DNA of 64,000 nt, from the NCBI GenBank assembly GCA_043228905.1, contig JBHGNT010000016.1:15810001-15874000 (forward strand). The letters run 5' to 3'. Numbering within the stretch: the stretch's first letter is position 1; the number at the start of each line of letters is the position of its first letter. Source of the stretch: Azolla caroliniana (lineage: Eukaryota > Plantae > Polypodiophyta). Below the pieces are notes generated by a model, which worked only from the letters and a program-made list of their open reading frames with translations, was not told the DNA's origin and made no database searches. Shown in pieces: positions 2,145 to 64,000 of the stretch. A program made the position numbers and the translations under genes.

Positions 2145-3231
2145 TGTTGTGAAGATCCGTCACTAGGCGGTGATTGCGAGGCGGAACCACCGAGGTTTTG
2201 GACCGGAAGGATCAAAGTTCGCACCAAGCTTAGCGAGAAAGTATTTAGCATAGATTGAGAGAGAGAAAGAGATTAAGATTAAACGCTTGACTTAGCTTGA
2301 GAAAGATTGATAGCTTGAGAAAGATTGATATGGCCCAGAGAGAGATATTGAGATTAAGATTTTAACTCTTGATTTAAGAAACAAGATATATTATTAATGA
2401 ATTTTCTTCTCATTAATTTCTTAGTTCATACATGGATCCATAATACATTTTCATCCATCCTTGTATAGATGCCCCCATTCATATGATGCATGTTTGCCAT
2501 TTGGCGCTCGTGTATTACATGTGGTGCATGATAACCATGTCACTCATTTTAGCTCTCATGCATAAGAATTTACATGTAAAAGTATGATGATAGAAATATA
2601 ATTTCAACTAAATATCTTGGCTTAGTGGAAAGCCAAATGACTCCTAACTTGGAGGTGCAAGGTTCAAATCCTTACTTGTCCGCCTTGTATATGTATATAT
2701 ATTTATATATTTATTTATCTAGTCGCTGGATGCCAGTTTCCGACCGGTTCGATGCCGCCGGATGTCGGTACCACTGGCTCCGTCGGATCACCGGTTGCCG
2801 GTGTGCCACCGTCGCTTTGCCGGCTGCCGCCGGATCACCGGCTCCATCGCCCGTCCGGTTTTGGTTGGCAAAAACCTTTACAAGTAGTTAGGCCATCTCT
2901 ACTCTTAGTTCAAGTTACCTTGAAATCTCTATGCTTCACATATAGACACAAAGATAATAGTTTTTGCTCTACCTTATATATGATGTGAGCCGTATTTGTC
3001 ATGCCTATGTGGGATATCTCACAAACTTTATACCCTCATATCTTGACATCTAGTTGTCCGTTTCTCGTGTAATAAAGTGCATTCGAAAGCTCTTGAAGAC
3101 CTCCATCATTTTGTACTTTAATATTAAACTTATTTAAAATTTTGTATTCACTATTATTGTTTTATGTAATTCATACTTGATTTTGTACGTTTTATGTGAT
3201 TTTCACACCATTGCCGAAAATCTTCAAGACA
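2145..3231 (-). repeat. 5' LTR of Gypsy L (~1.09 kb)
   Basis: TG...CA ends with an imperfect 12-bp TIR; 2460-2540 is the reverse complement of similar sequence at 61497-61600 in solo LTR 60323-62128. Confidence 0.8.
2618..2671 (+). promoter_or_regulatory. tRNA-like Pol III A-box/B-box pair inside the L LTR (antisense to the element)
   Basis: TGGCTTAGTGG (2618-2628), 32 nt spacer, GGTTCAAATCC (2661-2671). Confidence 0.65.
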
Positions 3232-3615: not shown

Positions 3616-4045
3616 TGTCAGGAATAGTACTAAAGCAGAGATGGAATTAGTACTAAGAAGAGCAGTACTATTAGTACTAAGAGGACGGGACTACGTAAGA
3701 TTCCCGAGAGAGGAAGTGAGAAGAGGAGAGAGATAGATAACGAGGATGAGAGAGAGAGAAAGCTAATATATTATGTGAAAAGATAAGTACAAGCAGCTAA
3801 GAGGCTTAAGACTAGCGTTGAACCAATTTGGTTCAAAACAATGCCTTGTGCCTCCTTTTATAGTGTTTTTAGGAATAATCATGAAGCTTCTAGAATGTTC
3901 CAGAGAGATCTGGAATATACATCAATTTTCTATGATAAAACATAAATGAAAATAATATCCTACAAATTACAATTCATAGTCTAATGGTAAGAGCTCGACC
4001 CATGTAACATAAGGTCATGGGTTCGAGTCTTGCCATATCATGACA
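3616..4045 (-). repeat. 3' LTR of chromovirus A
   Basis: TGTCAGG...CATGACA, direct repeat of 8913-9357, next to PPT AAGGGGGAGATAG. Confidence 0.95.
3977..4030 (+). promoter_or_regulatory. tRNA-like A-box/B-box pair at the U3 end of the A 3' LTR (second copy at 9289-9342)
   Basis: TAGTCTAATGG (3977-3987), 32 nt spacer, GGTTCGAGTC (4020-4029). Confidence 0.65.
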
Positions 4046-4056
4046 CTATCTCCCCC

Positions 4057-7000
4057 TTAAAGACGACGAGTGGAACGAGTCAGCGCTGATTGTGGACCGG
4101 GTTTGTTCGGATACTTTTGGTGGAAATCAGGAAGAAGATCTTGTGCATCCACTCGTCGACGCTGATTGCGGACCGGGTTTGTCCAGATACTTTCGGTGGA
4201 AATCAGGAAGAAGATCTTGTGCATTGGCAACATGCTCGACGGGTTGCCATGTACGTTCGCTCGGACTATAACCGAGCCAATCGACCAAGTAATAAAGTTT
4301 GTTGCGAACAAGTTTGGAATCGAGGATGGCAGCAACTTCATACTCCGGGCCGGCGTCCAATTCTAGCGGGGGCGGCGGTGGTGTCACACGATCGGGAATG
4401 GTGTTTGCTTTATAAGGTTCAAGAAGAGAACAATGAAAAACCGGATGTATCTGAAGCTGCGGAGGGAGATCAAGGCAGAATGTGACATCATTAATCTTAC
4501 CCGTAATACGGAAGGGACCGAGTCGTCGATAATCCAACTTGTCGCACGGTTGAGTAGTCTTGATGTGACGACGTAAGAGCCATACTCGATCTCCGATGGC
4601 AAAAGAGGAGGGAATCCGATGACGATCCGCATAAGTCTTCTGTGTGTGTTGAGCATGACGAAGGTGAGTAGAGAGATCCATCTGGATCTTCCGTAGCCTC
4701 TCCAAATGATCCTCGACACGAGGGTTGGTAGGTAGCTCCGGGGTGTTGATCACCGACCAACGAGGATGGAAACCGGTATAAGCGAAAAATGGGGAGACCC
4801 GAGTCGAGGAGTGAATAGCATTATTATACGCAAACTCCGCAAAGTGGAGAATCTCGGCCCAATCGTCCTGTTGATAACTCAGGAAACACCGGAGATATTG
4901 CTCCAACGTTTGGTTTGTTCGTTCCGCTTGCCCGTCGGTCTGAGGATGGTAGCCGAAGGAGAGGTTGCAGGAGACCTTGAGCATCTTGAAGAGATGCTGC
5001 CAAAATTTGGAGACAAATTGCATTCCTCGGTCATTGATGATACTGTCTGGGAGGCCATGATGCCGAAATACCTCACGCATAACAAGGGCGGTTGTTTCCT
5101 CGCTAGTGATGGCTTTAGTACACGGCACAAAATGTGCCATCTTCGTATATCGATCGATGACGGTTAGGATAGCCTCGAACCCCTTCAAGACCGGCAGATC
5201 TGTGATAAAATCAAGACAAATAGATTGCCACGGCTTACTTGGAATCGGTAAGGGTTCCAACAAGCCATATGGATGATGTCGTGGCATCTTTGCTCGACAG
5301 CAAGCATCACAGGTCTGAACGTAGTCGTCGACAAAATGGCGCATGTGGGGCCACCAAAAAGATCGTTGCACTAGCTCCAACGTCTTAGTACTACCGAAAT
5401 GTCCCGCCGTATGGGTGTCGTGACAATGCTGGACGATTTGAAGGCGACATGAGCAATCGGGGACATATACGCGCTTTTTAAAGAATAAGAAACCATCATG
5501 ATATTCGAATTGTCGGTAGTCAATACCTGGTTGTTGAGAGTGAGAACAGGATGCCCGAGAAGTATCAATGTGCGCCAAGATGTTCTGAGCAAAACTATCC
5601 GTCTTCAAGGTTGCACGTATGTCATTGGTAATCCGTGAATCCATCGGGGTGTGAAAAATCCGCGTCGTTTGCAATCGTGTTGGTCCCAAGATTACTTGCT
5701 TTTGATTACCAAATGTTGCATCACCAGCACGAGGTGCAAGATATGAACGCCGTGATAGTGCATCTGCTTTTCCTTGCTGCTTCCCCGGTCGATATGTGAT
5801 TTTGAAGTCGAAACGCGTGAGGAATTGCGCCCACCGAGCTTGACGTCGATTTAGTACGCGAGCGTTATGAAAATAAGCAAGATTTTTATGATCACTAAAG
5901 ACAATGACCTGATGTGGAGAGCCCTCTAAGAAATGTTGCCATTGCACAAATGAATCCACGATGGCTAATAACTCCTTGTCATGTATTTCGTAGTTGATTT
6001 CTACGACATCGAATTTGCGCGAATGGAAAGCCACCAGATGCAACTCTTCTTTATCTCCTTATTGAGAAAGGATGCTACCGAGGGCGAAATCTAATGCGTC
6101 AGCTTCCATGATGAATGGTTTGCTTGTATCCACATGAGCTAGAATCGGTGCTGATGTAACGACTTTCTTAAGATGCCGAAAAGCCATATCTGCTTCGATG
6201 GACCAAAGAAATGCTTGGCCCTTCTTCGTAAGTTGTGTGAGAGGTAAAATAATCTTCGAGTAATCCTGTATAAACTTACGGTAGAAGTTAGCAAAACCTA
6301 GAAAACATTGAACATCTCGTACCGACCGTGGAATTTGCCACTCTAGTACAATTTGGATTTTAGCTGGATCCATGGCGATGCCCTTTGAGGAGATGACGTA
6401 GCCTAGAAATTCCACTTGCTTGCAGTCAAAGCCACATTTTTCTAGCTTGGCATAAAGACCATTCTCGCGGAGACGCTTTAGTACTAATAGTACATGAGAA
6501 TCGTGCTCTTCTTGGGTCTTCGAATAAATCAATAGATCATCCAGATAGATGATCAAACAGATATCCAAGAGGTCTCCGAATATATCATTTGCCATGTGTT
6601 GGAAGACTGCGGGTGCATTGGTTAGGCCGAACGGCATAACAGTATACTCGAAATGCCCATACCGCGTGCGAAAGGCGGTCTTCCATTCATCTCCCGGTCG
6701 GATCCGCACGAGGTTATACGCTCCTCGTAGGTCGATTTTAGTAAAAAACTTGGCACCATTAACTCGCTCTAAAAGGCTTGATATAAGAGGAAGTGCATAC
6801 CTATTCCGGATGGTGACCTTATTCAATCCGCGGTAATCAACGATGAGACGAAGTGAGCCATCTTTCTTCTTGACAAAGAAGATGGGTGCACGGGCCGGAG
6901 ATTTCGAATGACGGATGAACCCGCTTGCCAAGTTCTCCTCTATGTAGGCTCGAAGGACTTCTAACTCGGTGGGTGACAAGTTGTAAATTGGTCCCCATGG

Positions 7001-7690
7001 TGGCTCGGTCCCTGGTTGTAAATCGATGGGACAGTCATAGGGATGGTGATGAGGAAGGGTACCGGCTTTTACCTTGTCAAATACATCGGGATAAGGAAGT
7101 TGTACTGAGGAGTCCTTCTTAATAGTGCTGGAAGGATGTACTGATATTGCAAATAGGAACATTGCCTCCTTGTGTCCTTCGCGTAATTGATGGAGTGAAA
7201 TGGTCGAAACTCGGTGACTAGATGCTTGGTGTGGTCGATATCGGACTTCTCTTGTTCTCTAATCTATGGCTAGATTATGTAATTCAAACCAAGGTAATCC
7301 TAGGACAATGGGATGCTCTGGACTACTAATTATATTAAATGATATTACACACACAAAACTACCTAGGACAACTTGAATGGGTTCTGATTCTTCTACAATA
7401 TTCCCGGAAGCAATGGGACAACCATCAATGACCACTACAGATGCAGGACAAGGAAGTTTCCTTAGGGATATCTGAGAAGCTTGGGCAAAATTTCGATCCA
7501 TAAAACAGGAATTAGCTCCGGAATCTAAGAGTGCTAGGACGGGTACTGGGGGAGTACTTTTAGTACTAACAATGACTTGGGCTAGGAACACATTGCTAAC
7601 TTGCTTGGAAGGAATGGAACCACTAATGGGCTGTACAGATCTAGGGTTGCTGTCCAACCAAACGGCTCCTATTTTGGCTGGACTCAATCA
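4057..7690 (-). pseudogene. pol: pol of chromovirus A (protease, RT, RNase H, integrase, chromodomain) with a few stops
   Basis: LLDSGANSCF protease; YLDD RT; RNase H (DKELLAIV); HHCC/DDE integrase with a GPF motif; chromodomain EYEVAAILDSK...YLVDWLGY; ORFs 7259-7687, 6059-7162 and 4127-6043. Confidence 0.93.
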
Positions 7691-8841
7691 TTTAACTCTT
7701 CATCTAATTGACTAAGGATTTCAAATTTGTTTGAGATACTTGGGTTATTAGTACTATGAATACTATCTGACACTCTATTAGTATTATTAATACTATCAGA
7801 CACTCCGAAGGGAAGAATTGACTCGGGTTTAGTACAGGCGATGATTTGATTTACCTGTCTTCTTGGCCTATGGGGACAATTGATGGCGATATGCCTTGGT
7901 CCACCACAATAAAGACATAATCGATTGGCACGTCGTTGTTGCTTTTCTTCTTCCGATAACGGGCCGCGTCGACGCATGGTGTTGATCTCCATCGGTGTCG
8001 GAATATTGGCTTGAGGTACATCGCGTGCAAACGGTTTAGCCGTGACTGAGGCGTATGTGGGTTCCGGCCGAGAGCGTGGTATTTGTAACTGACGTTCCGA
8101 ACGCCGTTCGAAAAGGCGGTTGTCGCATCGGACCGCTCGACTGATTGCCTCCGTAAGAGACTTTGGTTCTTCGGGGAAGGTTAAAAGCAAATCTTTGACA
8201 TCATTGCGCAAGCCGTAGCGAAACTGCTCCATGAGGGCTTGGTAATCCCAGGGGATATCTGAGGCGAGTAGATGGAAATCCGCCGCGTAGGCAGAGGCTG
8301 GACGATCGCCTTGACGCAATCTTCGGATCTTGTTGATCGCCGTCTTGATGCTATCGGTATCTCCAAAGCAGGCTTTAAACTCACCAATAAAATCTTCAAA
8401 GTTATTAAGCAAGGGCAATTGTTTTTCTAGAAGCGGAGCGAACCATGCCAAGGTTGAGCCGCTAAGTAACGTGCCTATTAGGCCGACTCGAGATGCATCA
8501 GTGGGATATCAGGAAGGATGCATCTGGATGACTAAGCGTACCTGATTAAGGAATCCCCGGAATTGCGATCGCGTTCCATCAAATTTCACAGGAAGTCCAA
8601 TCTTGGGCTCTTTATGAAATCCTTGGGGACTTGATCCTAGTTGTTGCAACGCTGCATCGAGTTGTTGTACTCGTAACGTTATCTCCCCATGTTGTTGTTG
8701 CGTTTGTTGTTTTTCGAGAGCGATTTGTTGCAGATCCCCTATCAACCATTGGTTTTCTTGTTCCAGGGCAACAAACTTTTCTTTTAGGCACTGTAACTCA
8801 GAGAAAATGGATTGATATTCTTGGGTGCTAACAGTAGCCAT
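7684..8841 (-). pseudogene. gag: gag of chromovirus A (one internal stop at 8509-8511)
   Basis: MATVSTQEYQ...KFDGTRSQFRGFL...CLYCGGPRHIAINC, a Tf1/sushi/PEG10-like gag with a knuckle. Confidence 0.9.
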
Positions 8842-8894
8842 AGTATAGGGAAAAGGGTAGGAGGATGAGGGAGAACGACAAGTAGGCTGGAGGA

Positions 8895-8910
8895 AACCAA
8901 ATTGGTTCAA
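8895..8910 (-). promoter_or_regulatory. Self-priming PBS of A (not tRNA-complementary)
   Basis: Element-sense TTGAACCAATTTGGTT lies 2 nt inside the 5' LTR boundary and is complementary over 16 nt to LTR positions 9130-9145, downstream of the TATA box. Confidence 0.7.
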
Positions 8911-8912
8911 AC

Positions 8913-9357
8913 TGTCAGGAATAGTACTAAAGCAGAGATGGAATTAGTACTAAGAAGAGTAGTACTATTAGTACTAAGAGGACGGGACTGCGTAAGATTC
9001 CGGAGAGAGGAAGTGAGAAGAGGAGAGAGAGAGATAGCGAGGAGGAGAGAGAGAGAGAAAGATGATGACAACAGCTAATATATTATGTGAAAAGATAAGT
9101 ACAATCGGCTAAGAGGCTTAAGACTGGCATTGAACCAATTTGGTTCAAAACAATTCCTTGTGCCTCCTTTTATAGTGTTTTTAGGAATAATCCTGAAGCT
9201 TCTAGAATGTTCCAGAGAGATCTAGAATATACATCGATTTTCTATGATAAAGCATAAATGAAAATAATATTCTACAAATTACAATTCATAGTCTAATGGT
9301 AAGAGCTCGACCCATGTAGCATAAGGTCATGGGTTCGAGTCTTGCCATATCATGACA
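8913..9357 (-). repeat. 5' LTR of chromovirus A
   Basis: Direct repeat of 3616-4045. Confidence 0.95.
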
Positions 9358-12093: not shown

Positions 12094-12169
12094 TGTTGGG
12101 AGATAGGTCCCTCCGGATGGGAAGGGAGAAGATCAGTGACGATGAACAAACTCGGCCGAGGCCGAAACC

Positions 12170-12447
12170 GTATGAGGAGGACCCCGGCTACGGAGAGCCG
12201 GATCGTGCAGGCCCGGTATGAACCGGATGAGGAGTACCCGGCTACGGAGAGCCGGATGGTGCAGGCCCGGTATGAACCGGATGAGGAGTACCCGGCTACG
12301 GAGAGCCGGATGGTGCAGCCCCGGTATGAACCGAATGAGGAGTACCCGGCTACGGAGAGCCGGATGGTGCAGGCCCGGTATGAACCGGATGAGGAGTACC
12401 CGGCTACGGAGAGCCGGATGGTGCAGACCCGGTATGAACCGGAGGAA
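12170..12447 (+). repeat. 54-bp tandem repeat (~5 copies) in U3 of the C 5' LTR
   Basis: Unit CCGGCTACGGAGAGCCGGATGGTGCAGGCCCGGTATGAACCGGATGAGGAGTAC. Confidence 0.92.
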
Positions 12448-12941
12448 GAGACATATTCGTAAATATGTTTCTAAGAGCCCATTGTGGCTATATTTGTAAA
12501 TAGCCAAAAAGTCATATTAGTATAAATATGACTTAGGGCAAACTAATATTAGGTTCTTGTTATTTTTCTCCTTGTTGGTGCAAGAAGAAGAGAGAGCACG
12601 TAATGTTGTATAGAGAGAGAGAGAGAGAAAGAGGTCGTTGCCTCTGTTGTAACCGCCGCCTGTGGCGAAGATCGTGAGTCCGAGGTCGTTGCCTCCGTGA
12701 ACTCACTGTTTTGTACATTCATACATAGTGACAGTTTGCAGCCTGTGGGTTGCCGTGGTTTTTCCCCTAGCTTGGGGTTTTCCACGTAAACCTCTTGTGT
12801 ACCTCTTCTCTCCTTTTGTGTCGCGTGTTTTTCTTTTCCTGTTTTCTGTGTAAGTAAAGAAGCTCGGTTGTGGCCGAGCGTTGGACATAAGGAGCCTTTG
12901 AGTTCCCATCAAGTGGTGTCAGAGTGAAATCGACACAGAAA

Positions 12942-26033: not shown

Positions 26034-26511
26034 TGTGGACGGATGGACCGGAATCGGTATGCCGTTCCGGATCCGGACCGATCCCGAATAGGTGCGGATG
26101 GCACCGTTTTGTACTACAGACCAGAAACCTATTTAAAGGCCCGGATACAATGTAATGAGCAGCAGATAATTAATGAAGCTTAGTGTTATTTTTATCTCTC
26201 TGTGTTAATTTCCGTTCTGCATTCATTATCATATCTTATGCGTGTGATTATTGAGGATGATCTTGCTAAGTAACCTAATTAAGTCGGATTAATCATTGAG
26301 CCTAATCCTCTTGCCGTAACACCCCTTTGGTGAAGTGTCTTCCGTAGACACCCTGTGTTAGGCCATTGTCCGGTCCTAAGAGTTAACACAATTTTTGGTG
26401 ACCACGATTCCTGTTATTGCAGCGAACGACGACATGAATGGATGACTAGATCAATGCACGACCTGGTTACAGATCGAACTCGACGCCTTGCCGAAAGGCA
26501 AAGGAGACGTG
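26034..26511 (+). mobile_element. 5' stub of another LTR element (LTR ~26034-26390, PBS-like TGGTGACCACG at 26396, short gag-like start), cut by A2
   Basis: TGTG...CACA ends; TATTTAAA box; TGG-starting PBS-like motif; MTRSMHDLVTDRTRRLAERQRRR; boundaries approximate. Confidence 0.5.
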
Positions 26512-26527
26512 TGTCATGATATGGCAA

Positions 26528-26581
26528 GACTCGAACCCATGACATTAGGTTATATGGGTTGAACTCTTGACCATTATATCA
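26528..26581 (-). promoter_or_regulatory. tRNA-like A/B-box pair in the A2 5' LTR (second copy at ~31777-31830)
   Basis: Minus strand TGATATAATGG, 33 nt spacer, GGTTCGAGTC. Confidence 0.55.
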
Positions 26582-27032
26582 TTTATTGTAATACGTAGGA
26601 TATTATTTTCATTTACATTTTGTTATAGGAAATCAATGTATAATCCAGATTTCTCTGGAACATTCTAGAAGCTTCAGGATTACTCCTAAGAATACTATAA
26701 AAGAGGGCACTAGGCATTATGTTGAACCAAATTGGTTCAACGCCAATCTTTAGCCTCATAGCCCTTTTGTACTTACTCTTCTTATAATATATAATCTGTT
26801 ATCATCATCTCTCTCTCTCTCTCTCTCTCCTCTGTTCTCTTCCTCTCTCGGGAGTCTTACGTAGTCCCGTCCCCTTAGTTCTAATAGTACTTCCCTTCTC
26901 TAGTACTAATTCTCTCTCTGTTTAGTACTAATCCTATCTCTGTTTAGTACTATTCCTGACAGTTTGAACCAATTTTTCCTTCTGTCTCTCTCCCTTCATA
27001 CTAATCACTTATTTCTCTTTTCTTTTCATCCC

Positions 27033-28184
27033 ATGGCCACAGTTAGTGCTCAGGAATATGAATCTGTTTTCTCAGAGTTTCAATGCCTAAAAAGAAGTTC
27101 CTTGCTTTGGAACAAGAAAATCAACGGTTGCTGGGGGATCTTCAACAAATCTCCTTAGAAAAGCAGCAAACACAACAACAACATGGGGAACTTGCATTAC
27201 GCGTGCAACAACTCGAAGCAACCATCGTAGCGATGCAACAACAAAGGCCCCGGAACATAAGGGATTCACAAGGAACCCAAGATTGGCCTTCCCACGAAGT
27301 TCGATGGAACACGATCGTAGTTTAGAGGGTTCCTTAATCAGGTACGATTAGTTATTCAAATGCATCCTTCCCGATATCCTACCGATGCATCACGAGTGGG
27401 TTTAGTAGGGACGCTGTTAAGTGGCTCAACGTTGGCATGGTTCGCTCCACTGTTGGAAAAAGAGTCTCCATTACTCAACAACTTTGAAGAATTTATAGGT
27501 GAGTTTAAAGCATGCTTTGGGGATACTGACAGCATAAGGACCGCAATCAACAAAATCCGGCGATTACGCCAAGGAGACCGTCCAGCCTCTGCATATGCTG
27601 CAGATTTCCATCTACTTGCCCCTGATATCCCTTGGGATGATCAAGCGCTGATGGAGCAATTTCATTATGGTTTACGCAACGATGTCAAGGATTTACTCTT
27701 GACTTTCCCTAAAGAGCCAAAGTCCTTAACAGAAGCAATCAGTCGCGCGGTAAGATGTGATAACCGCCTCTTTGAGCGACATTCAGAACGACAGCTACAG
27801 ATGCCGAGGGCAAGATTAGAGCCCACCTACGCCTCAATGGTAGCAAAACCTTTACCCAAGGAGTACTATAATGCGCCTCTAGTGAATACTCCGACTCCGA
27901 TGGAGATTGACACTACACGTCGTCGAGGACCATTATCCGAAGAAGAAAAGTAGCGATGCCGAACAAATCGACTATGTCTCTATTGTGGTGGTCCAGGACA
28001 CATTGCAATCAATTGTCCCCATAGGCCAAGAAGACAGGTAAACCAAATAGTTGCTAGTTCTAATTGTACTAAACCCGAGCCTATTACAGTAGGGATATCT
28101 AATAGTACTAATAGAACTAATACCCTAGATCTAGCGAACAAATTTGATGTCCTTAGTCAGTTAGAAGAAGAGTTAAACGACTAA
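27033..28184 (+). pseudogene. gag: gag of A2 (frameshifts and stops)
   Basis: MATVSAQEYESVF...; ORF 27360-27953; CLYCGGPGHIAINC knuckle; ends EELND*. Confidence 0.9.
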
Positions 28185-28223
28185 GTCCAGCCAAAATAGG
28201 AGCCGTTTGGTTGGATAGTCCTA
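28172..28223 (+). promoter_or_regulatory. Putative -1 ribosomal frameshift signal (G_TTA_AAC plus stem-loop/pseudoknot)
   Basis: Heptamer 28172-28178; 7-nt spacer; stem TCCAGCCAAA (28186-28195) / TTTGGTTGGA (28206-28215); loop TAGGA can pair with TCCTA (28219-28223); pol is in the -1 frame. Confidence 0.7.
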
Positions 28224-31200
28224 GATCTGTGCAGCCCATTAGTGGTTCCATTCCCTCTAAGCAAGTTAGCAATGTGTTCGTAGCCCAAGTAACAGTTAGT
28301 ACTAAAAGTACCCCTCCAGTACACGTCTTAGCACTTCTAGACTCCGGAGCTAATTCTTGCTTTATGGATAGGAATTTTGCCCAAGCTCATCAGATATCTC
28401 TTAGAAAACTTCCGTGTCCAGCCTCTGTAGTCGTCATTCATGGTCGTCCCATTGCTTCCGGAAATATCATAGAAGAGTCAGAACCCGTTAATATTGTCCT
28501 AGATAACTTAGCATGTGTAGTATCACTTAACATTATTAATATCCCAGAACATCCCATCGTTTTGGGATTACCATGGTTCGAGTTACATAACCCAGACATA
28601 GATTGGAGAACAAGAGAAATCCAGTGTCGACAAACCGGAGGATCTATTCAGAAGATTGCCACCATTTCACTACATCAGTTGCAGGAAGAAGGACGCAAGG
28701 AAGAAATGTTTCTCTTCGCAATATCACTAAAACCCTCCGACACCATTAAAGAGGAGTCCACCGTTCAGCTTCCAAAGAAGTATCATCATTATGCCGATGT
28801 ATTCGATAAAGTATGAGCCAATAGACTTCCTCACCATCGACCATGTGATTGCCCCATCGATTTACAATCGGGGAAAGAGCCACCATGGGGACCGATCTAC
28901 AATTTGTCACCAACCGAGCTAGAAGTCCTTCGAGCCTATATAGAGGAGAACTTGGAGAATGGATTCATTTGACATTCGAAATCTCCAGCCGGCGCACCCA
29001 TTTTCTTCGTCAAGAAAAAGGATGGCTCACTTCGTCTGGTGGTAGACTACCGTGGCTTGAATAAACTTACAATCCGCAATAGGTATGCACTTCCCCTTAT
29101 CTCAAGTCTTTTAGAACGGATCAATGGTGCCAGTTTCTTCACAAAGATCGACTTACGGGGGGCCTATAACCTCGTATGGATCCGACCAGGAGATGAATGG
29201 AAGACCGCATTCCGCACTAGATATGGGCACTTTGAGTATACGGTCATGCCGTTTGGCCTCACTAATGTGTCAGCCGTCTTCCAGCACATGGCAAATGATA
29301 TATTCCGAGATCTCTTGGATGTGTGTCTGATCATCTACTTGGATGATCTACTGGTTTATTCAAAGACCAAAGAAGAGCATGGTTCTCATGTACTGTTAGT
29401 ACTAAAACGACTTCGAGAACATGGTCTTTACGCAAAGCTAGAAAAATGTAGTTTTGGGTGCAACCAGGTGGAATTTCTCGGCTACATCATTTCCTCAGAA
29501 GGCATCTCCATGGACCCAGCTAAGGTCAAGACGGTAGTAGAATGACAGGCTCCGCGCTCGGTGCGGGATGTGCAATGCTTTTTAGGGTTTGCCAATTTTT
29601 ACTGGAAGTTTATACAAGATTACTCAAAGCTCGTTCTGCCTCTCACACAACTTACCAGGAAGGGACAATCGTTCGTTTGGTCTGAAGAAGCATATATGGC
29701 TTTCAAGAGTCTTAAAAAGGCTTTTACATCGGCTCCAATTCTAGCTCATGTCGATCTGGAACTACCATTCATTATCAAAGTTGACGCATCGGATTTCGCA
29801 TTGGGCAGCATTCTGTCACAACGGGGTCATGATGAGAAGCTACATCCTGTGGCTTTTCACTCACGCAAGTTTGACGCCGCCGAAATCAATTACGAAATTC
29901 ATGATAAGGAGCTATTGGCAATAGTGGACTCGTTTATGCAATGGAGGCAATTTTTAGAGGGGTCCTCTCATCAAGTCACCATATTCAGTGATCATAAAAA
30001 CCTTGCCTACTTTCAGGATGCTCGAGTGTTAAATCGACGTCAAGCTCGGTGGACCCACTTCCTCACGCGTTTCGACTTCAAAATTACATATCATCCGAGG
30101 AAGCACCAAGGGAAGGCAGATGCATTATCACGGCGTTCGTATCTAACACCGCATCCCGGTGAGCCGACTTTTGATAACCAAAAGCAAGTAATCTTGGGAC
30201 CGGCACGACTGCAAGCAACACAAGTTTTTGGCATGCCCATGGATTCCCACGTTATCAATATCATACGTGCGGACCTGAAGACAGATGCTTTCGCCCAAGC
30301 TATACTAGCACAGATTGATCCCTCTCAAGCGTCGTGCTCACAGTCACAACCACCAGGTACGGACTATCGACAATTCAAATACCATGATGGATTACTCTTC
30401 TTTAAAGAACTTTTGTATGTTCCTAATGGCTCTTGCCGCCTTCGAGTAGTACAAAACTGTCATGACACATATACAGCTGGGCATTTTGGTAGTACTAAAA
30501 CATTAGATTTAGTACAACGATCATTCTGGTGGCCCCGTATGCGACAATTTGTCGAAGAGTTTGTTCGGACTTGTGATACATGCTGTAGAGCGAAAATGCC
30601 GAGGCATCATCCCTATGGTTTATTAGAACCATTACCAATTCCAAGCAAGCCATGGCAATCCATTGCTCTCGACTTCATCACAGATCTTCCAGTCTCTAAG
30701 GGGTTGAATGCGATTCTAACAGTGGTAGATCGATATACGAAGATGGCTCATTTCTTGCCATGTACTAAGGAAATCTCAAGTGAAGACACCACCGAAATTG
30801 TCATGTGTGAAGTATGTCGGCATCATGGACTCCCCAATAGTATCGTCAGCGATCGTGGACCCCAGTTCATGTCAAAATTCTGGAAACACCTTTTTAAAAT
30901 GCTCAAGATCACTTGTAACCTCTCCTTTGGCTACCACCCACAAACCGGCGGCCAAGCCGAATGAACAAATCAAACGCTGGAGCAGTATTTGCAGTGCTTT
31001 CTCAGCTATCATCAGGATAACTGGGTAGATATTCTCCACTTCGCCGAATTTGCCTATAATAACTCTATCCACACATCGACTAAAGTTTCGCCATTTTATG
31101 CTTATACGGGATGTCACCCTCGGTGGAGTGTACTTGAAACCCCAGAGGTGTCCATAAATCCTTGCGCGGAGGATCGTTTGGAGCAGTTACGCAAGATACA

Positions 31201-31768
31201 AGCAGATTTATGTACTCATCTCCAGCAAGCTCAACAAACACACAAGGTCTACGCGGATCGTCATCGACTTCCATCTAGTTTTAACATTGGAGATCGGGTG
31301 TGGTTGCTACGACGACACATCAAGACTACTCGCCCATGTGAGAAGTTGGATTATCGGCGATTAGGTCCTTTCCGTATTATCGGGAAGATTAATGATGTCG
31401 CTTTTCGTCTCGATCTACCTCCTCAACTTCGGATACATCCGGTGTTTAATAGTTCACTCCTTGAACCCTATCACGAGAGCACCATCCCAGGGCGTATTAT
31501 ACAACCTCCACCCCCGATCGAGCTTGAATATGGACCGGAGTACGAGGTTGCCGCCATCCTTGATTCCAAGATTGTTCGCAACAAGCTCTACTATCTAGTC
31601 GATTGGCTAGGCTATAGTCCCAGCGAACGTACTTGGGAACCGATCGAGAATGTGACAAATGCTCGTGCGCTTCTTGAAGACTTCCATCGGCAATATCCAC
31701 ACAAACCGGGTCCTCCATCCAAAACGACTCGTGACACTCGTCGTTTTAAAGGGGAGATAGTGTCATGA
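28172..31768 (+). pseudogene. pol: pol of A2 (PR, RT, RNase H, IN, chromodomain) with stops
   Basis: LLDSGANSCF; YLDD; DASDFALG; SDRGPQF; GPF; EYEVAAILDSK...WLGYSPSERTWEP. Confidence 0.93.
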
Positions 31769-32083
31769 TATGGCAAGACTCGAACCCATGACATTAGGTT
31801 ATATGGGTTGAGCTCTTGACCATTATATCATTTATTGTAATACGTAGGATATTATTTTCATTTACATTTTGTTATAGGAAATCAATGTATAATCCAGATT
31901 TCTCTGGAACATTCTAGAAGCTTCAGGATTACTCCTAAGAACACTATAAAAGAGGGCACTAGGCATTATGTTGAACCAAATTGGTTCAACGCCAATCTTT
32001 AGCCTCATAGCACTTTTGTACTTACTCTTCTTATAATATATAATCTGTTATCATCATCTCTCTCTCTCTCTCTCTCTCTCCTC

Positions 32084-32120
<37 letters not shown>

Positions 32121-32247
32121 TTCTCTTCCTCTCTCGGGAGTCTTACGTAGTCCCGTCCCCTTAGTTCTAATAGTACTTCCCTTCTCTAGTACTAATTCTC
32201 TCTCTGTTTAGTACTAATCCTATCTTTGTTTAGTACTATTCCTGACA

Positions 32248-33017
32248 TAGGGAAAATTAGGGTTTGTGACTTCCGTAAGGAAATTTAGGGTTTATGGCTT
32301 CCACAGGGAAAATTAGGGTTTATGGCCTCCGTAAGGAAAATTTCGGGTTTATGAGAGTTATGGCTTCCCTAACATAAGGGAGCTGAGAAGGAAAAGAAAA
32401 TTTATGGAGAGAGAGTATGAGTGTAAAAAAACGATGGAATTTTATATGGAGTTCTCCCTTGATCATCTACATGTCCACTTTTTGTTGCATGGCCTCTACT
32501 TTTAGTTGCATAGCTTTTTCTTTTAGTTGCATACGACCGTCCACATGACCTTTACTTTAGTTTTCTTCATTTCACTTTAATTAGCCACATGATCCTTTTA
32601 TCTGTTCGGTTTGCGTCCAGCCTAGTCCGGTCGCCGATTGCTGCTGCAAGTTCTAGTTTGCTTACCGACCGGTTTCGGGTTCCGGTTTGCCTTACCGGCC
32701 AATTCCGGTTTTGCTTACCGACCGGTTTCAATTTTGCTTACCAACTGGTTTCTGATTTTGGTTTTGCTTACCTGTCGGTTTCTGGTTTTTGGGAACTTGG
32801 CCACCATCATCCATTAAGAGAAAGTGGCCAAAGTTCTTTTAGCATAAATGAAAATGAGGGGTATCAAGGTGCTTATATAGCCAGGGCCTTCAGTTTCCTA
32901 TCTATGTGGGATAAATAATAGTTCTTTTTTCCCTATCTTCTCAAACATCCATCTTCTATAACATGCCATTAAGCTAATATAAAGTACTTATTTTATTATT
33001 TATTTTTTTACATAGTG
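32248..33017. mobile_element. Probable right end of a CACTA-type DNA transposon, with subterminal repeats
   Basis: Ends ...TTTTTTACATAGTG (CACTA terminus) at 33017, where Gypsy coding sequence begins; ~29-bp TTAGGGTTT-containing repeats at 32248-32352; TTGCTTACC...GGTTT repeats at ~32655-32790. Confidence 0.45.
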
Positions 33018-46100: not shown

Positions 46101-46415
46101 TGTTGGGGATATGTCCCTCTAATGGGAGGAACCGACTATTCAGGCTGAGAAGAACCAACGGTCGAGGACTAGAAGGCGCCGACTATTTGAAAGGAGCCGA
46201 CAGTCGAAGAGTCAACAACAGAGAGTCGACTGTTTAATCGACTGATTATTATTCTAGGAATAATAATAGTAACGATATGTAGAAGTGCCTACATGTGTAA
46301 ATAGCCCATATGATGTACTAGTAAATATACACTTAGGGCAATACTTTCTGTGTGACATTGTGGTGGTGTAGAACAGGAAGTAGGTTGTGTGCGTAGTCGG
46401 CAGAGATTTGTGTGA

Positions 46416-46454
<39 letters not shown>

Positions 46455-46887
46455 CGCTACAGCTGTGTGTGTAATAGCAGACAACAAGATCATTGCACAG
46501 CTGATACACTCTAAAGGAGTGTTGTAATCCCATCTATTGTACATCCACTATATAGTAAAGTTTTGTTGACCCATGGTTTTTTCCCGTTTTCGGGTTTCCA
46601 CGTTAAATCTATGTGTATTGTGTCTCTGTGTTCATGTGTTGTGTATTTTCAGCATCGTTTGTTCTTCTGGTGTTAGAATCGATCCTCTACATAACGGAGG
46701 TGAGTAGACGGAAATTTGTAGCATATGTGGAGGCTGGATGATCACCTTCACGTAATCGTCGGATTTTGTGGATTGTTGTCCTTATGTTGTCAGTATCTCC
46801 AAAATAGGCTTTAAACTCATTTATAAACTCTTCATAATTGTTTAATAATATAGATTCCTTTTCTAACAACAGAGCAAACCATGACAA
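40156..46887 (-). mobile_element. Degraded chromovirus fragment A3 (gag, PR, RT start; pieces 40156-41434 and 46692-46887); host of G and H
   Basis: PPWGPIY, ALLDFGSNSCF, CLYCGGPGHIAANC; reading LLTSVIPWDDKA restored across H. Confidence 0.85.
41435..46691 (+). mobile_element. Full-length degraded Copia H (C-related), TSD TAATG/TAACG
   Basis: LTRs 41435-42014 and 46101-46691; PBS TGGTATCAGAGC 42018-42029; PPT ~46087-46100; polyprotein remnant 42043-46090 with YVDD; many stops. Confidence 0.92.
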
Positions 46888-58140: not shown

Positions 58141-58161
58141 TAATGACAAATGAAGCCTACA

Positions 58162-58307
58162 TGTCAACTAGAATCCGATGCACAACATCAGATTCAAGTG
58201 AAAATGTCCACTTTTCAACTAGAATTTGATGCACTGCATTGGATTCTAGTTGAAATATAGGATTTTCAATCAGAAATCCCATGCACTGCATTGTATTTTC
58301 GTTGAAA
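58162..58307. repeat. Three tandem ~51-bp imperfect palindromes
   Basis: Best unit TTTCAACTAGAAT-TTGATGCACTGCATTGG-ATTCTAGTTGAAA (58213-58255). Confidence 0.75.
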
Positions 58308-58591
58308 TGTGGGCAATTTTTATATAGATTTTGGTAAGATTATTCATGTTTCAAATGGTTTTTTGTTAGTTTTTTCATCTTTTTTTATTAGTATTTGTTA
58401 CTTTTTGCTCTTAATTTAGCTATAACATTATGTGTTATACATTTTAGTGAGCCTCGTCAAAAGGTCCCAGCTTTTAAGCTAAAGATTTGAACTCCAACAA
58501 AACAAGATTCCGAGTCATTTTTAAAAGATGTGTCTCGAAGAACACTATTCGATTCAGCAAGGGATGGGGCATCAAAATCCTTTGTTGAGAC

Positions 58592-60170: not shown

Positions 60171-60597
60171 GGTTGCGGTCTGGATGAGGGAGAATACGCC
60201 TTTGGTTTTCGAGCTACAATCAATGTTGCTCGTTGAAGAGAACCACAAGGTGCATTGACAAGCATGCACGCCAATAGCAATATGTTGTACATGGAGGCAA
60301 ATAGGCCTCATGGTCGTGGCGGTGTCGTGAAGTACGAAACCTTCACATTAAAATTCTACAATAAGATAAATACGTAACTAAAATAACATTTGATAATGTT
60401 TTATATATAAATATAATATTAACAACACATGATAATATTAGATATATATGTAAAGAAAAATAAGATAGATAGATGGATAGATTATATTACACGAACAAGA
60501 GAGGACTTGAACCAATAACCCCACCCTATCACTCTCAAATCTTACCATTTACTCTATACTAGTAATATACATAAAATAAAGCATACTTTATATATAC

Positions 60598-61283
60598 TGA
60601 TGGGAACTCAAAGCTCCTTATACGCAACGCTCGGCCACAACCGAGCTTAGAATCACACACAGAAAACGGGAAATAATGAACGACACGAAGAAGAGAAGAG
60701 TACGTAGGATGTTTACGTGGAAAACCCTAAGGGAAAAACCACGGCAGCCCACAGGCTGCAAACTATCACTATGTTAGAATGTACAACAGTGAGTTCACGG
60801 AGGCAACGACCTCTGCTCACGATCCTCGCCACAAGCAGCGGTTACAACAGAGGCAACGACCTCTTTCTCTCTCTGTACACAGTTACGCGCTCTCTCTTTT
60901 CTTGCACCAACAAGAATGACAACAATAGTAACTAAAAAAGTTTGCCCTAAGTCATATTTATACTAATATGACTTTTCGGCTATTTACAAATATAGCCTCG
61001 ATGGACTCTCAGAAACATATTTATGAATATGTCTCTTCATCCGGTGAGCATTCCTCACTGGGTCTGCACCATCCGGCTCTCCGTAGCCGGGTACTCCTCA
61101 TCCGGTTCTCACCGGGTCTGCACCATCCGACTCTCCGTAGCCGGGTATTCCTCATCCGGTTTCCACCATCTGCACCATCCGGCTCTCCGTAGCCGGGTAC
61201 TCCTCATCCGGTTAGGCCTCAGCCGAGTTTGTTCATCGGCACGGTTCTTCTCTCTTCCATCCGGAGGGACCTGTCTCCCAACA
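60598..61283 (-). mobile_element. Solo LTR of the Copia C family, TSD TATAC
   Basis: TGATGGGAACTC...CTCCCAACA; TATAC at 60593-60597 and 61284-61288; contains ~3.5 degenerate 54-bp repeats. Confidence 0.93.
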
Positions 61284-61358
61284 TATACTTTATATTACAT
61301 AAAGGATTTGCTTCATGATATAAAATAAAGTTGTATGTTGTATTCAATAGTATTTTGA

Positions 61359-61411
61359 GACTCGAACCCACAACCTCATACACCAAAGTCAACACACCTA
61401 CCATTAGGTTA
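61359..61411 (-). promoter_or_regulatory. tRNA-like A/B-box pair in the solo LTR (further pairs at 60503-60556 - and 61722-61774 +)
   Basis: TAACCTAATGG-32nt-GGTTCGAGTC; TAGAGTAAATGG-31nt-GGTTCAAGTCC; TAGCTTGGCGG-32nt-GGTTCGAGCC. Confidence 0.6.
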
Positions 61412-64000
61412 GGTCCTTTCTCTTTAAGATTATAATTTTCATGTTATTGTTATTGCATATATTGTTTCATACATAAAAGCTCAAATGAGCAAGATGTTTA
61501 TCATGCATCACATGTAATGCATGAACGCCAAATGGCGATCATGCATCACATGCATGTCTTGTACCCTCCAATGCATCATATGCATGGGGGCACCTATTTA
61601 AAGGGTGAAAGAGAAGATCAAAATGGAAGATGTATGAGATATCAATCAAATTATGTATTACATAAGAGATATCATAAAAATAGATAAAGAAGGGAAAAAG
61701 TTTAACATAAAGGTGGAGTTCTAGCTTGGCGGTCGTGGTAGTCAACTCTCAACAAGTGGGAGGCGGTTCGAGCCTTATCTTCATCAAAATATTGAAGTGA
61801 AGATTCTAGTGGTCTACGATCAAGAAAGAGAAGAGAGATTACCTTGCAAGACAAAGTTTGGAGGTTTAACGACGTGCACAATCATTTTGTAACTCTTTCA
61901 TGAAAATGATTATAAATTTCATACACTTTCTCATATATTATTTTATATCTTATCTTGTCTTATCTTATATTCCTTAAAAATCCTATTTTGTCATATCTTA
62001 TTGATCTCTATTTACTCTATCTCTACTCTTTCGTCTCTTTCGTCCATAATCCTAGCGATTCCTTCCTCACTTTCACGATATCTTTTGTCTACGCAACGCT
62101 ACGCTTCTAGGCAAGCCACGCCACGACAACGGACTAGGCGGATCGACACACAATGGAGGCGGCCGACAGTAGAACCAGAGGCATAACCGAAATGCCGAAA
62201 ATAGTTCCGGACCCCCCATGAGTAGGGGGAGTCAAGGCTGTGCCAGAAGCTAGCAAGGAATGGCCACTATGGACTACTCGTACTATGGCCAAAAGGACCA
62301 CAAAGAGAGTGACTGCTACAAAAAGCAACCCGTTTTAGACAAAGTTGGATCGAGCCAGGGGATGTAGATAGGCATCAGTGATCACATTACGCCGAAGGGT
62401 CAAGGCAAGCTTAAATAGGGTTAGCCTTCGTCATGAACCACAAAGACAATTCGATGGTGGTGACACCTCAAGGTCGAACGAGCTATGGTATGTGGATTCA
62501 GGCACATCCAACCACATGATGAATCACAAGGAGTGGTTCTCCATATTGGTGAATCTGAAGCAAGTAGGGGTCATTGAGATTCGCGATGACACCCCTCAGC
62601 CCATCGAACACATCGGAGATGTCCCTCTGAGCCCTATCAGCCAAAGAGGAATCATGAGAAATGTCTTGCATGTGTCGATAGTCACCAAGAACTTGGTGTT
62701 GGTTGGACGAATTGTCGACCAGGCCATGCAAGTTCCATTTACTCACCTTAGGTGCTTTATCGAGGAAGAGGGCAAGAGCATTGCGCAAGGGTGCCGAGAG
62801 GGGAGGATGTTCATCCTCGAAGCAAATGATGTCAACACCGCTATGTTCACCAAAGGACAAAAGGTCGAATCGGATATCGATCTATGGCACAAGCGGTTCA
62901 GCCAAGTCAACTTCCACTAGCTTTGAGAAATGCAGCCAAAGAATATCGTTTTCGGCCTACTGAAATTCAGTGGCCAAAAGGGTCAAGTGTATGAAGCCTG
63001 CTGGTTAGGGAAGCATCCCCGACTTCCTTTCCCCAATGAGCACAATTGGAGTTTAAACAAGCTCGATTTGTTTCACTCAGATGAATGGGGACCGACACAG
63101 AACATGAGCATCGGAGGGAGCCGATATTTCGTGATCTTCATCGATGACTTCACTCGGCATACATGGGCATTCATGATTGAGAAGAAGAGTAAAGTCTTCT
63201 CCTATTTCTTGAAAGTGAAAAGCCTTGTTGAATGGGAAATAGGACGAAAGATCAAATGCCTTAGGACCGATGGCGAAAAGGAGTATTTTTTCGACCAGTT
63301 CTCTAGTTATCTACAAAAGGAAGGAATTTGACATGAATTCTCCTACAAATACACGCCTCAACAGAACGGCGTGGGCAAGTAGAAGAATCAGACAATAGAA
63401 AGGAGAAGCATATGCCGAAGTTCTATTGGGCCGAAGCATTTGGAAAAGCCGTTTCCTTGCAGAGTCAGACATCTACAAATGGAGGAGTGTCGCCACATGA
63501 GTTGTACTTCGGGAAGAAGCCGAACTTGGCACACTTGAGGGTGTTCAACAACATAGCATATGTTCATGTGCCGAAAGAGAAGTGGAGGAAGCTAGATGCC
63601 AAAGCTGAGAAGTATATCTTAGTCAGCCACTCGGACAAGCAAAAGAGTTATAAGTGTTATAACCCCCGAACGAAAGAGGTCTGAGTAAGCCGAGATGTCA
63701 TATTTGATGAGTCAGCTTTGTGGTACTTGCCCTCTTCTCCAAACCTTGTTAACCCTATTCCAAATTCTAAGGATGAGGCCGAGATGCCCCTGGAACAAGA
63801 GGAAATCAAAACTCTAGAAGAGAGTCCACTCTCATTTCGGCTAAGTGGGCCGAATGAGGAACTGAGTCAGAATGACCGGTCGATGTCGAGTCGACCAGTA
63901 GTGGAGACTTGGTCGTGCAGTCTCCGCGCAAGGAATCAAGGAGATAGCTTACGTGCAATGAGAAGGATCCCAATGAATCTAACACGGCCAAGAGTGAAGA

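What the first reader, a model, noticed from the sequence alone, without database searches (positions are those of the whole stretch)
3977..4030. An unrelated lineage (Tcn1-like chromoviruses) also carries an outward-facing A/B-box pair at the very start of U3
Seen: all four LTRs of A and A2 have A-box, 32/33 nt, GGTTCGAGTC within ~70 bp of the LTR 5' terminus (3977-4029, 9289-9341, 26528-26581, ~31777-31830). The pair is antisense to the element, with AT-rich CAA-containing sequence upstream, as in plant tRNA genes. The B-box is invariant while A and A2 differ around it. Inference: Pol III started in the A 3' LTR would read antisense over the PPT and chromodomain end to the first T4 run (~4115-4118), giving a ~150-nt RNA; from the 5' LTR it would read into the flank. 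With the L family, this suggests two Gypsy lineages convergently built tRNA-like boundary/promoter modules into their LTRs. This is my best candidate for an undescribed system here.
Basis: partly seen in the sequence, partly recalled or inferred. Interest (0 to 1): 0.82.

Follow-up and report, generated by a model that had tools for sequence, protein, structure and literature searches.

The report
Backward tRNA promoter in retrotransposon ends
A whole branch of protein-coding jumping genes, likely from mosses, keeps the two promoter boxes of a tRNA gene pointing outward at the start of each end-repeat, where they likely dock the cell's tRNA-gene factor and would help keep the element's own promoter open in silent chromatin.

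Summary
All four LTRs carry an antisense A-box/B-box pair (32/33 nt apart) in LTR nt 17-69. The elements are Tcn1-type chromoviruses with a predicted self-priming site. In a protein-based survey, all 7 tested LTRs of the integrase clade around A carry the pair, 0 of 13 outside LTRs do, and no LTR has it in sense. Its distance from the LTR end varies (16-49 nt), so att-site constraint does not explain it. The tRNA variable-loop motif AGGTC and an AT-rich leader are kept too. Cloverleaf stems, CAA and a terminator are not kept, so the proposed ~150-nt RNA is largely private to this copy. The A family alone adds a long hairpin. 'Convergence' with the L family is doubtful: two Tcn1 relatives share a 26-27-nt U3 block with an L-type LTR. 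Best reading (0.5): a tRNA-derived TFIIIC site acting as barrier or promoter opener; no binding or RNA evidence exists. Closest known: Helenus TRIMs (sense, non-autonomous). The scan noted antisense tRNA-like units in Gypsy elements of other genomes before. Verdict: new variant of a known kind.

The parts
3616..9357 (-). Element A: Tcn1-type chromovirus, TG...CA ends, 5-bp TSD GAAGC, gag-pol with stops (decayed copy)
3616..4045 (-). A 3' LTR (430 nt)
8913..9357 (-). A 5' LTR (445 nt; 412 of 430 columns identical to the 3' LTR)
3977..3987 (+). A-box of the module in the A 3' LTR
4012..4016 (+). AGGTC motif at the place of the tRNA variable loop; 29 of 30 cells kept in six Tcn1 families
4020..4029 (+). 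B-box of the module in the A 3' LTR; 16 nt inside the LTR terminus
3985..4035 (+). Long hairpin overlying the module, specific to the A family
3940..3976 (+). AT-rich leader (81% AT) upstream of the A-box, the predicted TFIIIB/TBP landing zone
   Evidence: function inferred
3855..3862 (-). Pol II TATA-like box of the LTR (LTR nt 184), 115 nt inside the A-box, facing the other way
4046..4058 (-). Polypurine tract next to the 3' LTR
4115..4118 (+). T4 run proposed as terminator; last T is mostly C in 3 of 4 runs, so not a family trait
8896..8912 (-). Primer-binding site complementary over 15 nt to the LTR's R-start region (predicted Tf1-type self-priming; no tRNA PBS)
4130..6058 (-). RNase H - integrase - SH3 - chromodomain ORF; chromodomain keeps the Y/W/Y cage
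9289..9341 (+). A/B module in the A 5' LTR, pointing into the flank
26512..32247 (+). Element A2, same family (367 of 426 LTR columns identical to A); flanks ACGTG/TAGGG do not form a TSD
26528..26581 (-). A/B module in the A2 5' LTR (A-box with G10>A, spacing 33)
31777..31830 (-). A/B module in the A2 3' LTR
2618..2670 (+). Comparison: A/B module in the LTR region of the unrelated-gag L element, antisense to it; weak Rfam tRNA match (13.3 bits, E 2.2)
60323..62128 (+). Comparison: L-type solo-LTR-like insertion with three A/B modules (60504-60556 minus, 61359-61411 minus, 61722-61774 plus) and a nested Copia solo LTR

Best explanation
The first 70 bases of these LTRs hold a likely tRNA-derived A-box/B-box promoter that a Tcn1 subclade has kept in antisense orientation, and it likely works on DNA as a docking site for TFIIIC that would hold an open, barrier-like zone just upstream of the element's own Pol II promoter. 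Shown: the boxes, their 32-35-nt spacing, the AGGTC motif and an AT-rich leader are kept across families whose integrases are 55-75% identical to A's and whose U3 regions otherwise share only short blocks; tRNA stems and a terminator are not kept. The module lies in U3, so reverse transcription copies it to both LTRs (established mechanism). Inferred: TFIIIC binds nt 17-69 and places TFIIIB on the AT-rich leader, head to head with the Pol II TATA box 115-184 nt further in. Inferred: because the group I chromodomain would steer new copies into H3K9-methylated chromatin, copies whose 5' LTR resists silencing from the flank leave more offspring; facing outward keeps Pol III from running through the Pol II promoter. 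Any antisense RNA would be a by-product of variable length. The A-family hairpin is a later, family-specific overlay.
For: Core integrase clade: 7 of 7 tested LTR starts carry the antisense pair; sister clade 1 of 7 (plus one with B-box only); outside 0 of 13; sense strand 0 of 27; shuffle rate at most 5 of 400 (pattern loosened after seeing the sequences). The stricter scan finds 8 of 28 antisense and 0 of 28 sense. Distance to the terminus 16, 22, 29, 36, 40 nt and 49 nt for L009. AGGTC was not in the anchor pattern and is kept in 29 of 30 cells. LTR nt 81-120 are 68-92% AT in 9 carriers and 32-68% in 18 non-carriers. Acceptor stem 1-4 of 7 pairs, fold z -0.2 to +0.4 in the six loci outside the A family, L001-L004, L007, L009 (L021 -0.1); first T4 at 22-1037 nt: selection is on sequence, not on an RNA shape or length. 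Within the family, listed variants (4% cut-off) fall at the Y/N places of the A-box, in the inter-box arm and loop, at C4016 and at the B-box CpG, none at the GG or GTT cores. Y/W/Y chromodomain cage present; the MAGGY group I chromodomain binds H3K9me2/3 (PMC3350952, passages). TFIIIC often sits at chromatin boundaries and tRNA-derived B2 SINEs act as mobile boundaries (PMC8136502, passages).
Against: No binding, chromatin or expression data were available. The B-box CpG is not spared: 4024 C>T is 11%, 8%, 9% and 1.5% of depth in the four runs, as high as or higher than other C positions, and L013 carries the same change, so most genomic copies do not look protected. G10 of the A-box is lost in A2, L001 and L003; L009 has an atypical A-box and L021 none. 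Close relatives without the module exist (L005, L010, L011, L036, L065; SM-Tcn1 by eye), so it is dispensable for Tcn1 elements. Strong retention of AGGTC is not required by the textbook A/B-box definition (recalled) and fits the tRNA-pairing rival equally. TFIIIC barrier activity in plants was not found in my search.
Confidence: 0.5

Rival explanations
1. The module is a true Pol III gene whose antisense RNA is the selected product: from the 3' LTR it would read over the PPT and chromodomain end, and in the A family it begins with a ~22-26-bp hairpin that could feed small-RNA self-regulation, as Pol III miRNA cassettes do in foamy-virus LTRs.
For: Complete type-2 promoter anatomy with AT-rich leader. 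A-family hairpin z -5.0 to -6.1; shuffling only the 24 nt after the A-box never matched its energy, 0 of 1000; the commonest family variants lie in the loop region 4004-4009. Precedent: simian foamy virus LTR miRNAs with A/B boxes and terminators (PMC3993851, passages).
Against: The hairpin is absent from the other carrier families (z about 0). No T-run follows the hairpin; first T4 at 22-1037 nt; T4118 is C in 89%, 79% and 89% of depth in X1, X2, X5, though it stays T in X20.
Confidence: 0.2
2. The selected function is in the element's genomic RNA: read in sense, the stretch is complementary to the conserved D-loop, variable loop and T-loop of host tRNAs and would anneal to a tRNA during packaging, dimer formation or strand transfer, like the tRNA-complementary U3 sequences of Ty3 and HIV-1 (recalled, not checked).
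For: Explains the strict antisense orientation (0 of 27 sense), the place next to the PPT, and the retention of AGGTC next to the B-box (29 of 30 cells).
Against: The elements are predicted to self-prime: PBS and R-start are complementary over 15, 12, 12 and 9 nt in A, A2, L004, L009, so no tRNA primer is needed. The bases between AGGTC and the T-loop differ among families, breaking a continuous duplex. G.U-tolerated changes are almost absent (one, G57>A in L001, among six families). A58 is kept 6 of 6 although it is usually 1-methylated and cannot pair (recalled; the position was also in my anchor pattern). The AT-rich leader is not explained.
Confidence: 0.13
3. TFIIIC binds the module on the linear cDNA ends or on integrated LTRs and affects nuclear position or integration (tethering to Pol III clusters, or offering landing pads to other elements), rather than protecting the promoter.
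For: The B-box always lies within 16-49 nt of the U3 end. One Copia solo LTR sits 37-41 bp upstream of the A-box of a related module at 60556.
Against: One insertion in AT-rich DNA is weak. Neither A nor A2 lies beside a tRNA gene. Only one cDNA end (U3) carries an inward copy near the terminus.
Confidence: 0.1
4. The module is a neutral relic of a tRNA or SINE captured into U3, or a by-product of the att site and the hairpin.
For: Within the window the first 32 LTR nt are identical in A and A2; the A2 A-box mirrors the terminal arm; the module was lost or never gained in several relatives.
Against: Only the boxes, spacing and AGGTC survive between families while neighbouring U3 has diverged; position relative to the att end varies; families without the hairpin keep the boxes.
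Confidence: 0.07

Closest known systems
Helenus TRIMs / TRIMp3 with Cassandra and Ajax (Kojima 2024, PMC10886601)
   Same: tRNA-derived A and B boxes inside both LTRs, conserved boxes without a functional tRNA; the Selaginella Helenus LTR also keeps AGGTC before the B-box.
   Different: Helenus is short and non-coding, tRNA-primed, and in the LTRs I saw the tRNA part is in sense and mid-LTR, proposed to drive the element's own RNA. Here the elements encode gag-pol, keep a Pol II TATA and a self-priming site, and the boxes are antisense at the U3 start, so they cannot make the genomic RNA.
Tcn1 chromoviruses of mosses and lycophytes (PMC2864245, PMC6317226, PMC3350952)
   Same: Gag-RT-RH-INT-chromodomain order, group I chromodomain, 5-bp TSD, ~5.7 kb, predicted self-priming, TGTCA...TGACA ends.
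   Different: The passages read mention no Pol III boxes in Tcn1 LTRs; the published SM-Tcn1 LTR lacks the module by eye. The module marks a subclade.
tDNA, TFIIIC-site and B2 SINE chromatin boundaries (PMC8136502, passages)
   Same: A tRNA-derived Pol III promoter carried by a mobile element, with a Pol II TATA facing the other way, proposed as a boundary.
   Different: There the boundary affects host genes and often involves CTCF in mouse; here it would be built into an autonomous LTR element for its own promoter, and no boundary activity is shown.
Foamy-virus LTR Pol III miRNA cassettes (PMC3993851, passages)
   Same: A/B boxes and a hairpin inside the LTR of an autonomous retroelement.
   Different: Those units have terminators at the hairpin base and shown small-RNA products; here no terminator is conserved and the hairpin is limited to one family.

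Membership tests
Tcn1 chromovirus | Gypsy domain order ending in a chromodomain | tested here: met
   Pfam gag, RVT_1, RNase H, rve, SH3, Chromo
Tcn1 chromovirus | Group I chromodomain with Y/W/Y aromatic cage | tested here: met
   definition in PMC3350952
Tcn1 chromovirus | No tRNA PBS; self-priming complement | tested here: met
   15- and 12-nt PBS/R-start complement in A and A2; predicted, not assayed
Tcn1 chromovirus | 5-bp TSD | tested here: met
   GAAGC on both sides of A; A2 flanks do not match
Tcn1 chromovirus | RT/INT tree placement with named Tcn1 references | not tested
   The tree holds no named reference; SM-Tcn1 was compared by eye only
Helenus / TRIMp3 | Non-autonomous, about 0.3-1.3 kb, no coding | tested here: not met
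   5.7-kb elements with gag-pol
Helenus / TRIMp3 | tRNA-derived A and B boxes in both LTRs | tested here: met
Helenus / TRIMp3 | Pol III promoter oriented to transcribe the element | tested here: not met
   Antisense in all carriers, 0 of 27 sense
Functional tRNA gene | Cloverleaf with acceptor and anticodon stems | tested here: not met
   ARAGORN 0 in window and 28 loci; no Rfam match; acceptor 2-3 of 7 pairs in A/A2
Type-2 Pol III promoter | A-box and B-box at tRNA-like spacing with AT-rich leader | tested here: met
Type-2 Pol III promoter | Conserved oligo-dT terminator | tested here: not met
   first T4 at 22-1037 nt; T4118 mostly C in 3 of 4 runs
Type-2 Pol III promoter / TFIIIC boundary | TFIIIC occupancy, Pol III transcript, barrier activity | not testable with these tools
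   No ChIP data; no run on record as RNA held the stretch
SINE insertion in an LTR | Head, body, tail and own TSD | tested here: inconclusive
   No tail or TSD seen by eye around the module; an old capture would have lost them

The most novel reading that the evidence does not exclude
Heterochromatin-seeking chromoviruses of non-seed plants carry their own outward-facing TFIIIC barrier in U3, and this module moves between unrelated LTR lineages by U3 exchange, so that very many retrotransposon ends act as mobile tRNA-gene-like insulators that punctuate the host's heterochromatin and keep the elements expressible there.
Probability: 0.3. Interest if true: 0.85.

Novelty: new variant of a known kind. 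Interest (0 to 1): 0.66.

Why it matters
Chromoviruses with a group I chromodomain are thought to aim at silent chromatin, and how their promoters then stay usable is open. A clade-wide, antisense tRNA-promoter module at the U3 edge gives a concrete 70-bp candidate with carriers and close non-carriers as natural controls. It extends small-RNA-derived Pol III boxes from non-autonomous TRIMs, where they are proposed to drive the element, to autonomous elements, where they cannot. If TFIIIC binds even a fraction of copies of such a high-copy family, LTR ends would be a major class of extra-tRNA TFIIIC sites in these genomes.

Tried and rejected
No whole genome is held for this window, so copy number, solo-LTR survey and insertion-site statistics could not be run. 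ARAGORN found no tRNA in the window or in 28 loci; Rfam found none over 3950-4060 or in the whole window. No RNA holder listed; X20 is flagged as probably DNA: no evidence on expression either way. Viral contigs gave 4 distant loci, left out of the tree and LTR tests. The strict and loose regexes missed A2; one search missed L003, L009 and L013 and did not call the LTR start of L007, L021 and L062; one search anchored on the wrong B-like match for A2_5 and L009, so those two rows were not used. An A/B-like hit in L002 at 6386 lies in coding sequence and was dropped as chance. The careful tree did not finish; the quick tree is reported. The Atlas search for the L gag gave only unnamed or weak DUF4100 leads. 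att-site constraint was rejected (variable distance). A conserved hairpin as the clade-wide function was rejected. A conserved 150-nt RNA was rejected. Methylation protection of the B-box CpG was looked for and not seen. Paper searches for a prior description returned only Helenus as a close case; one search did not retrieve the Ty3 or HIV-1 tRNA-complement papers, which stay recalled. The place look-up found no look-alike windows.

Full report
Observation. The B-box GGTTCGAGTC occurs exactly at 4020, 9332, 26528 and 31777, one in each LTR of A and A2, and once more at 61359. The A-box is TAGTCTAATGG in A, 32 nt upstream, and TGATATAATGG in A2, 33 nt upstream, the latter with one mismatch to TRGYNNARYGG. 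The pair occupies LTR nt 17-69 and is antisense to gag-pol. The leader is 81% AT. One claim needs care: A and A2 are identical over the first 32 LTR bases, att end included, not just at the B-box.

The elements. A spans 3616-9357 on the minus strand with TSD GAAGC; A2 spans 26512-32247 on the plus strand without a matching TSD. Both encode gag, RT, RNase H, integrase, SH3 and a chromodomain in pieces broken by stops. The chromodomain keeps the Y/W/Y cage of group I (PMC3350952 passages). There is no tRNA PBS; the PBS is complementary over 15 (A) and 12 (A2) nt to the region about 30 nt after the LTR TATA box, as expected for Tf1-type self-priming, which is predicted for 83% of plant Tcn1 elements (PMC6317226 supplement). 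This fits Tcn1; no named reference was in my tree. The host is not given; Tcn1 elements in plants are reported only from mosses and club-mosses, so a non-seed plant, likely a moss, is an inference.

Is it a tRNA? No. ARAGORN finds none in the window or in 28 loci, Rfam finds none over 3950-4060, and acceptor and anticodon stems are broken. In A and A2 the module folds as one long hairpin (z -4.6 to -6.3 on the module strand); shuffling only the 24 nt after the A-box never reached that energy, 0 of 1000. That raised the rival that the 'A-box' is only the mirror of the terminal arm.

Family variation. Laying contigs of six public runs (X1, X2, X5, X20; X1, X11, X13, X20) shows a very high-copy family. 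Depths are sums over contigs, not copy numbers, and fall steeply over the A-box end, so A-box variation is undercounted. Listed variants are A3978G, T3980C and changes at 3981, all within the consensus, and loose ends show TGG- and TAGC-type A-boxes. At a 4% cut-off the 16 listed rows lie at 3980-3981, 3991-3996, 4004-4012, 4016 and the B-box CpG; none touches the GG or GTT cores. The CpG is not spared: C4024T is 11%, 8%, 9% and 1.5% of depth. The T4 run proposed as terminator ends in C in 89%, 79% and 89% of depth in X1, X2 and X5 and stays T in X20; a tandem repeat beside it could add to that figure.

Clade survey. An integrase-chromodomain alignment fetched 79 loci from metagenome contigs, chosen by protein and blind to the LTR. 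A quick IQ-TREE tree of 80 rows (L014 dropped as too short; L080-L083 not included) puts A, A2, L013, L001, L002, L003, L004 and L009 in one clade (support 95) and L007 and L021 in its sister clade; the label needs two changes. A 3' LTR start could be called for 27 of the 79 loci; a distant 41-row group shows none near the integrase end and was not tested. A strict scan gave 8 of 28 LTR starts with an antisense pair (one weak, L008) and 0 of 28 in sense, against 0.0088 per 150 nt background. A looser pattern, set after seeing the sequences, gave 7 of 7 in the core clade, 1 of 7 in the sister clade plus one B-box only, 0 of 13 outside, 0 of 27 in sense, with shuffle rates of at most 5 of 400 (near-duplicates L002 and L041 and second LTRs left out). 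Integrase identity to A runs from 75% to 55% among full carriers, and their U3 regions share only short blocks.

What is kept and what is not. The B-box lies 16, 22, 29, 36 and 40 nt from the terminus and 49 nt in L009, so it is not the att site. Spacing is 32-33 nt (35 in L013). AGGTC, at the place of the tRNA variable loop and not part of the anchor, is kept in 29 of 30 cells over six families. LTR nt 81-120 are 68-92% AT in 9 carriers and 32-68% in 18 non-carriers. Not kept: the hairpin (z -0.2 to +0.4 outside the A family, -1.8 in L013), CAA, G10 of the A-box in A2, L001 and L003, and a terminator (first T4 22-1037 nt away). L005, a non-carrier sister of L007, has its TATA at nt 105 against 263, which suggests loss by deletion. 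SM-Tcn1 lacks the module by eye.

Convergence. The L gag has no similarity to A's; its RT lies outside the window, so its superfamily was not tested. An L-type solo-LTR-like insertion at 60323-62128 has 4-bp NCGN-like flanks, as reported for Phygy, and three modules. The Tcn1 relatives L003 and L004 share a 26-27-nt U3 block with it (E 2.5e-7 and 8.7e-7); A does not. Shared descent by U3 exchange is thus as plausible as convergence; U3 mosaics are described for Tf1/Tf2-type elements (10.1101/2022.12.06.519325, passages).

Mechanism. Selection acts on the bases that define a type-2 Pol III promoter, not on RNA shape or length. The most likely reader is TFIIIC on DNA. It would set TFIIIB on the AT-rich leader, head to head with the Pol II TATA 115-184 nt further in (five families). 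A group I chromodomain is proposed to steer insertion to H3K9-methylated chromatin, and TFIIIC sites and tRNA-derived SINEs are linked to boundaries (PMC8136502 passages), so a built-in barrier or promoter opener is my best reading (0.5). All of that is inference. Rivals: a selected antisense or hairpin RNA (0.2), a tRNA-annealing site in the genomic RNA (0.13; precedents recalled, not retrieved), a role in positioning or targeting (0.1), a neutral relic (0.07).

Known systems and novelty. Helenus TRIMs carry tRNA-derived boxes in LTRs but are non-coding and, in the sequences I saw, in sense (PMC10886601: parts 1-5 of 6 read; supplement passage). That paper notes that 'not a few LTRs' in Repbase resemble part of a tRNA but follows only TRIMs, so such LTRs may sit unremarked in databases. 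Foamy-virus LTRs hold Pol III miRNA units with terminators (PMC3993851 passages). Searches found no description of an antisense A/B module in Tcn1 LTRs; the library lacks most subscription papers. Of PMC2864245 I saw passages and supplement S3, not the .DOC files; of PMC6317226 passages and three rows of one table, not the element table or fasta, which could bear on distribution; of 10.64898/2026.03.01.708851 passages only. Earlier scan notes report antisense tRNA-like units inside Gypsy elements and LTR-borne Pol III boxes in other genomes; these are unchecked leads. Verdict: real, conserved across a clade, function unshown; new variant of a known kind; interest 0.66.

Noticed in passing
window 60323-62128: Solo-LTR-like insertion (TG...CA, 7-bp terminal inverted repeat, 4-bp flanks GCGG/ACGG) inside a Copia gag region, with three A/B modules: two antisense in tandem near the left end and one in the opposite direction near the right end, so modules face outward at both ends.
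   Followed up: partly
window 60598-61283: A Copia solo LTR with TSD TATAC is inserted 37-41 bp upstream of the A-box at 60556, in the AT-rich leader; one case only.
   Followed up: partly
window 61518-61544; L003 and L004 LTR nt ~190-237; window 2476-2563: A 26-27-nt U3 block with GCCAAATGGCG and CATGC repeats is shared between an L-type LTR and two Tcn1 relatives; it resembles E2F-type and RY-type sites (recalled labels).
   Followed up: partly
window 8896-8912, 26962-26978; L002, L004, L009; SM-Tcn1 in PMC2864245 supplement: PBS and R-start change together between families, as self-priming predicts; SM-Tcn1 shows the same complement by eye, although the paper reported no self-priming site.
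   Followed up: partly
window 26507-26511 and 32248-32252: A2 has LTRs with 446 of 450 identical columns but non-matching flanks, suggesting recombination between two copies or an assembly join.
   Followed up: no
window 58153-58319: A long imperfect inverted-repeat region that draws weak miRNA-family matches in Rfam, all below gathering score; could be a MITE or a hairpin RNA locus.
   Followed up: no
window 40156-41431 and 46691-46887: A third A-like internal fragment split by a Copia element (41435-46689); no LTR of its own was found.
   Followed up: partly
window 56353-56958 and 12166-12452: Tandem arrays: three 201-nt units, and 54-nt units inside a Copia LTR family.
   Followed up: no
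L008, L010, L011, L012, L036, L065 LTR starts: Tcn1 relatives without the module fill U3 with short tandem repeats instead.
   Followed up: no
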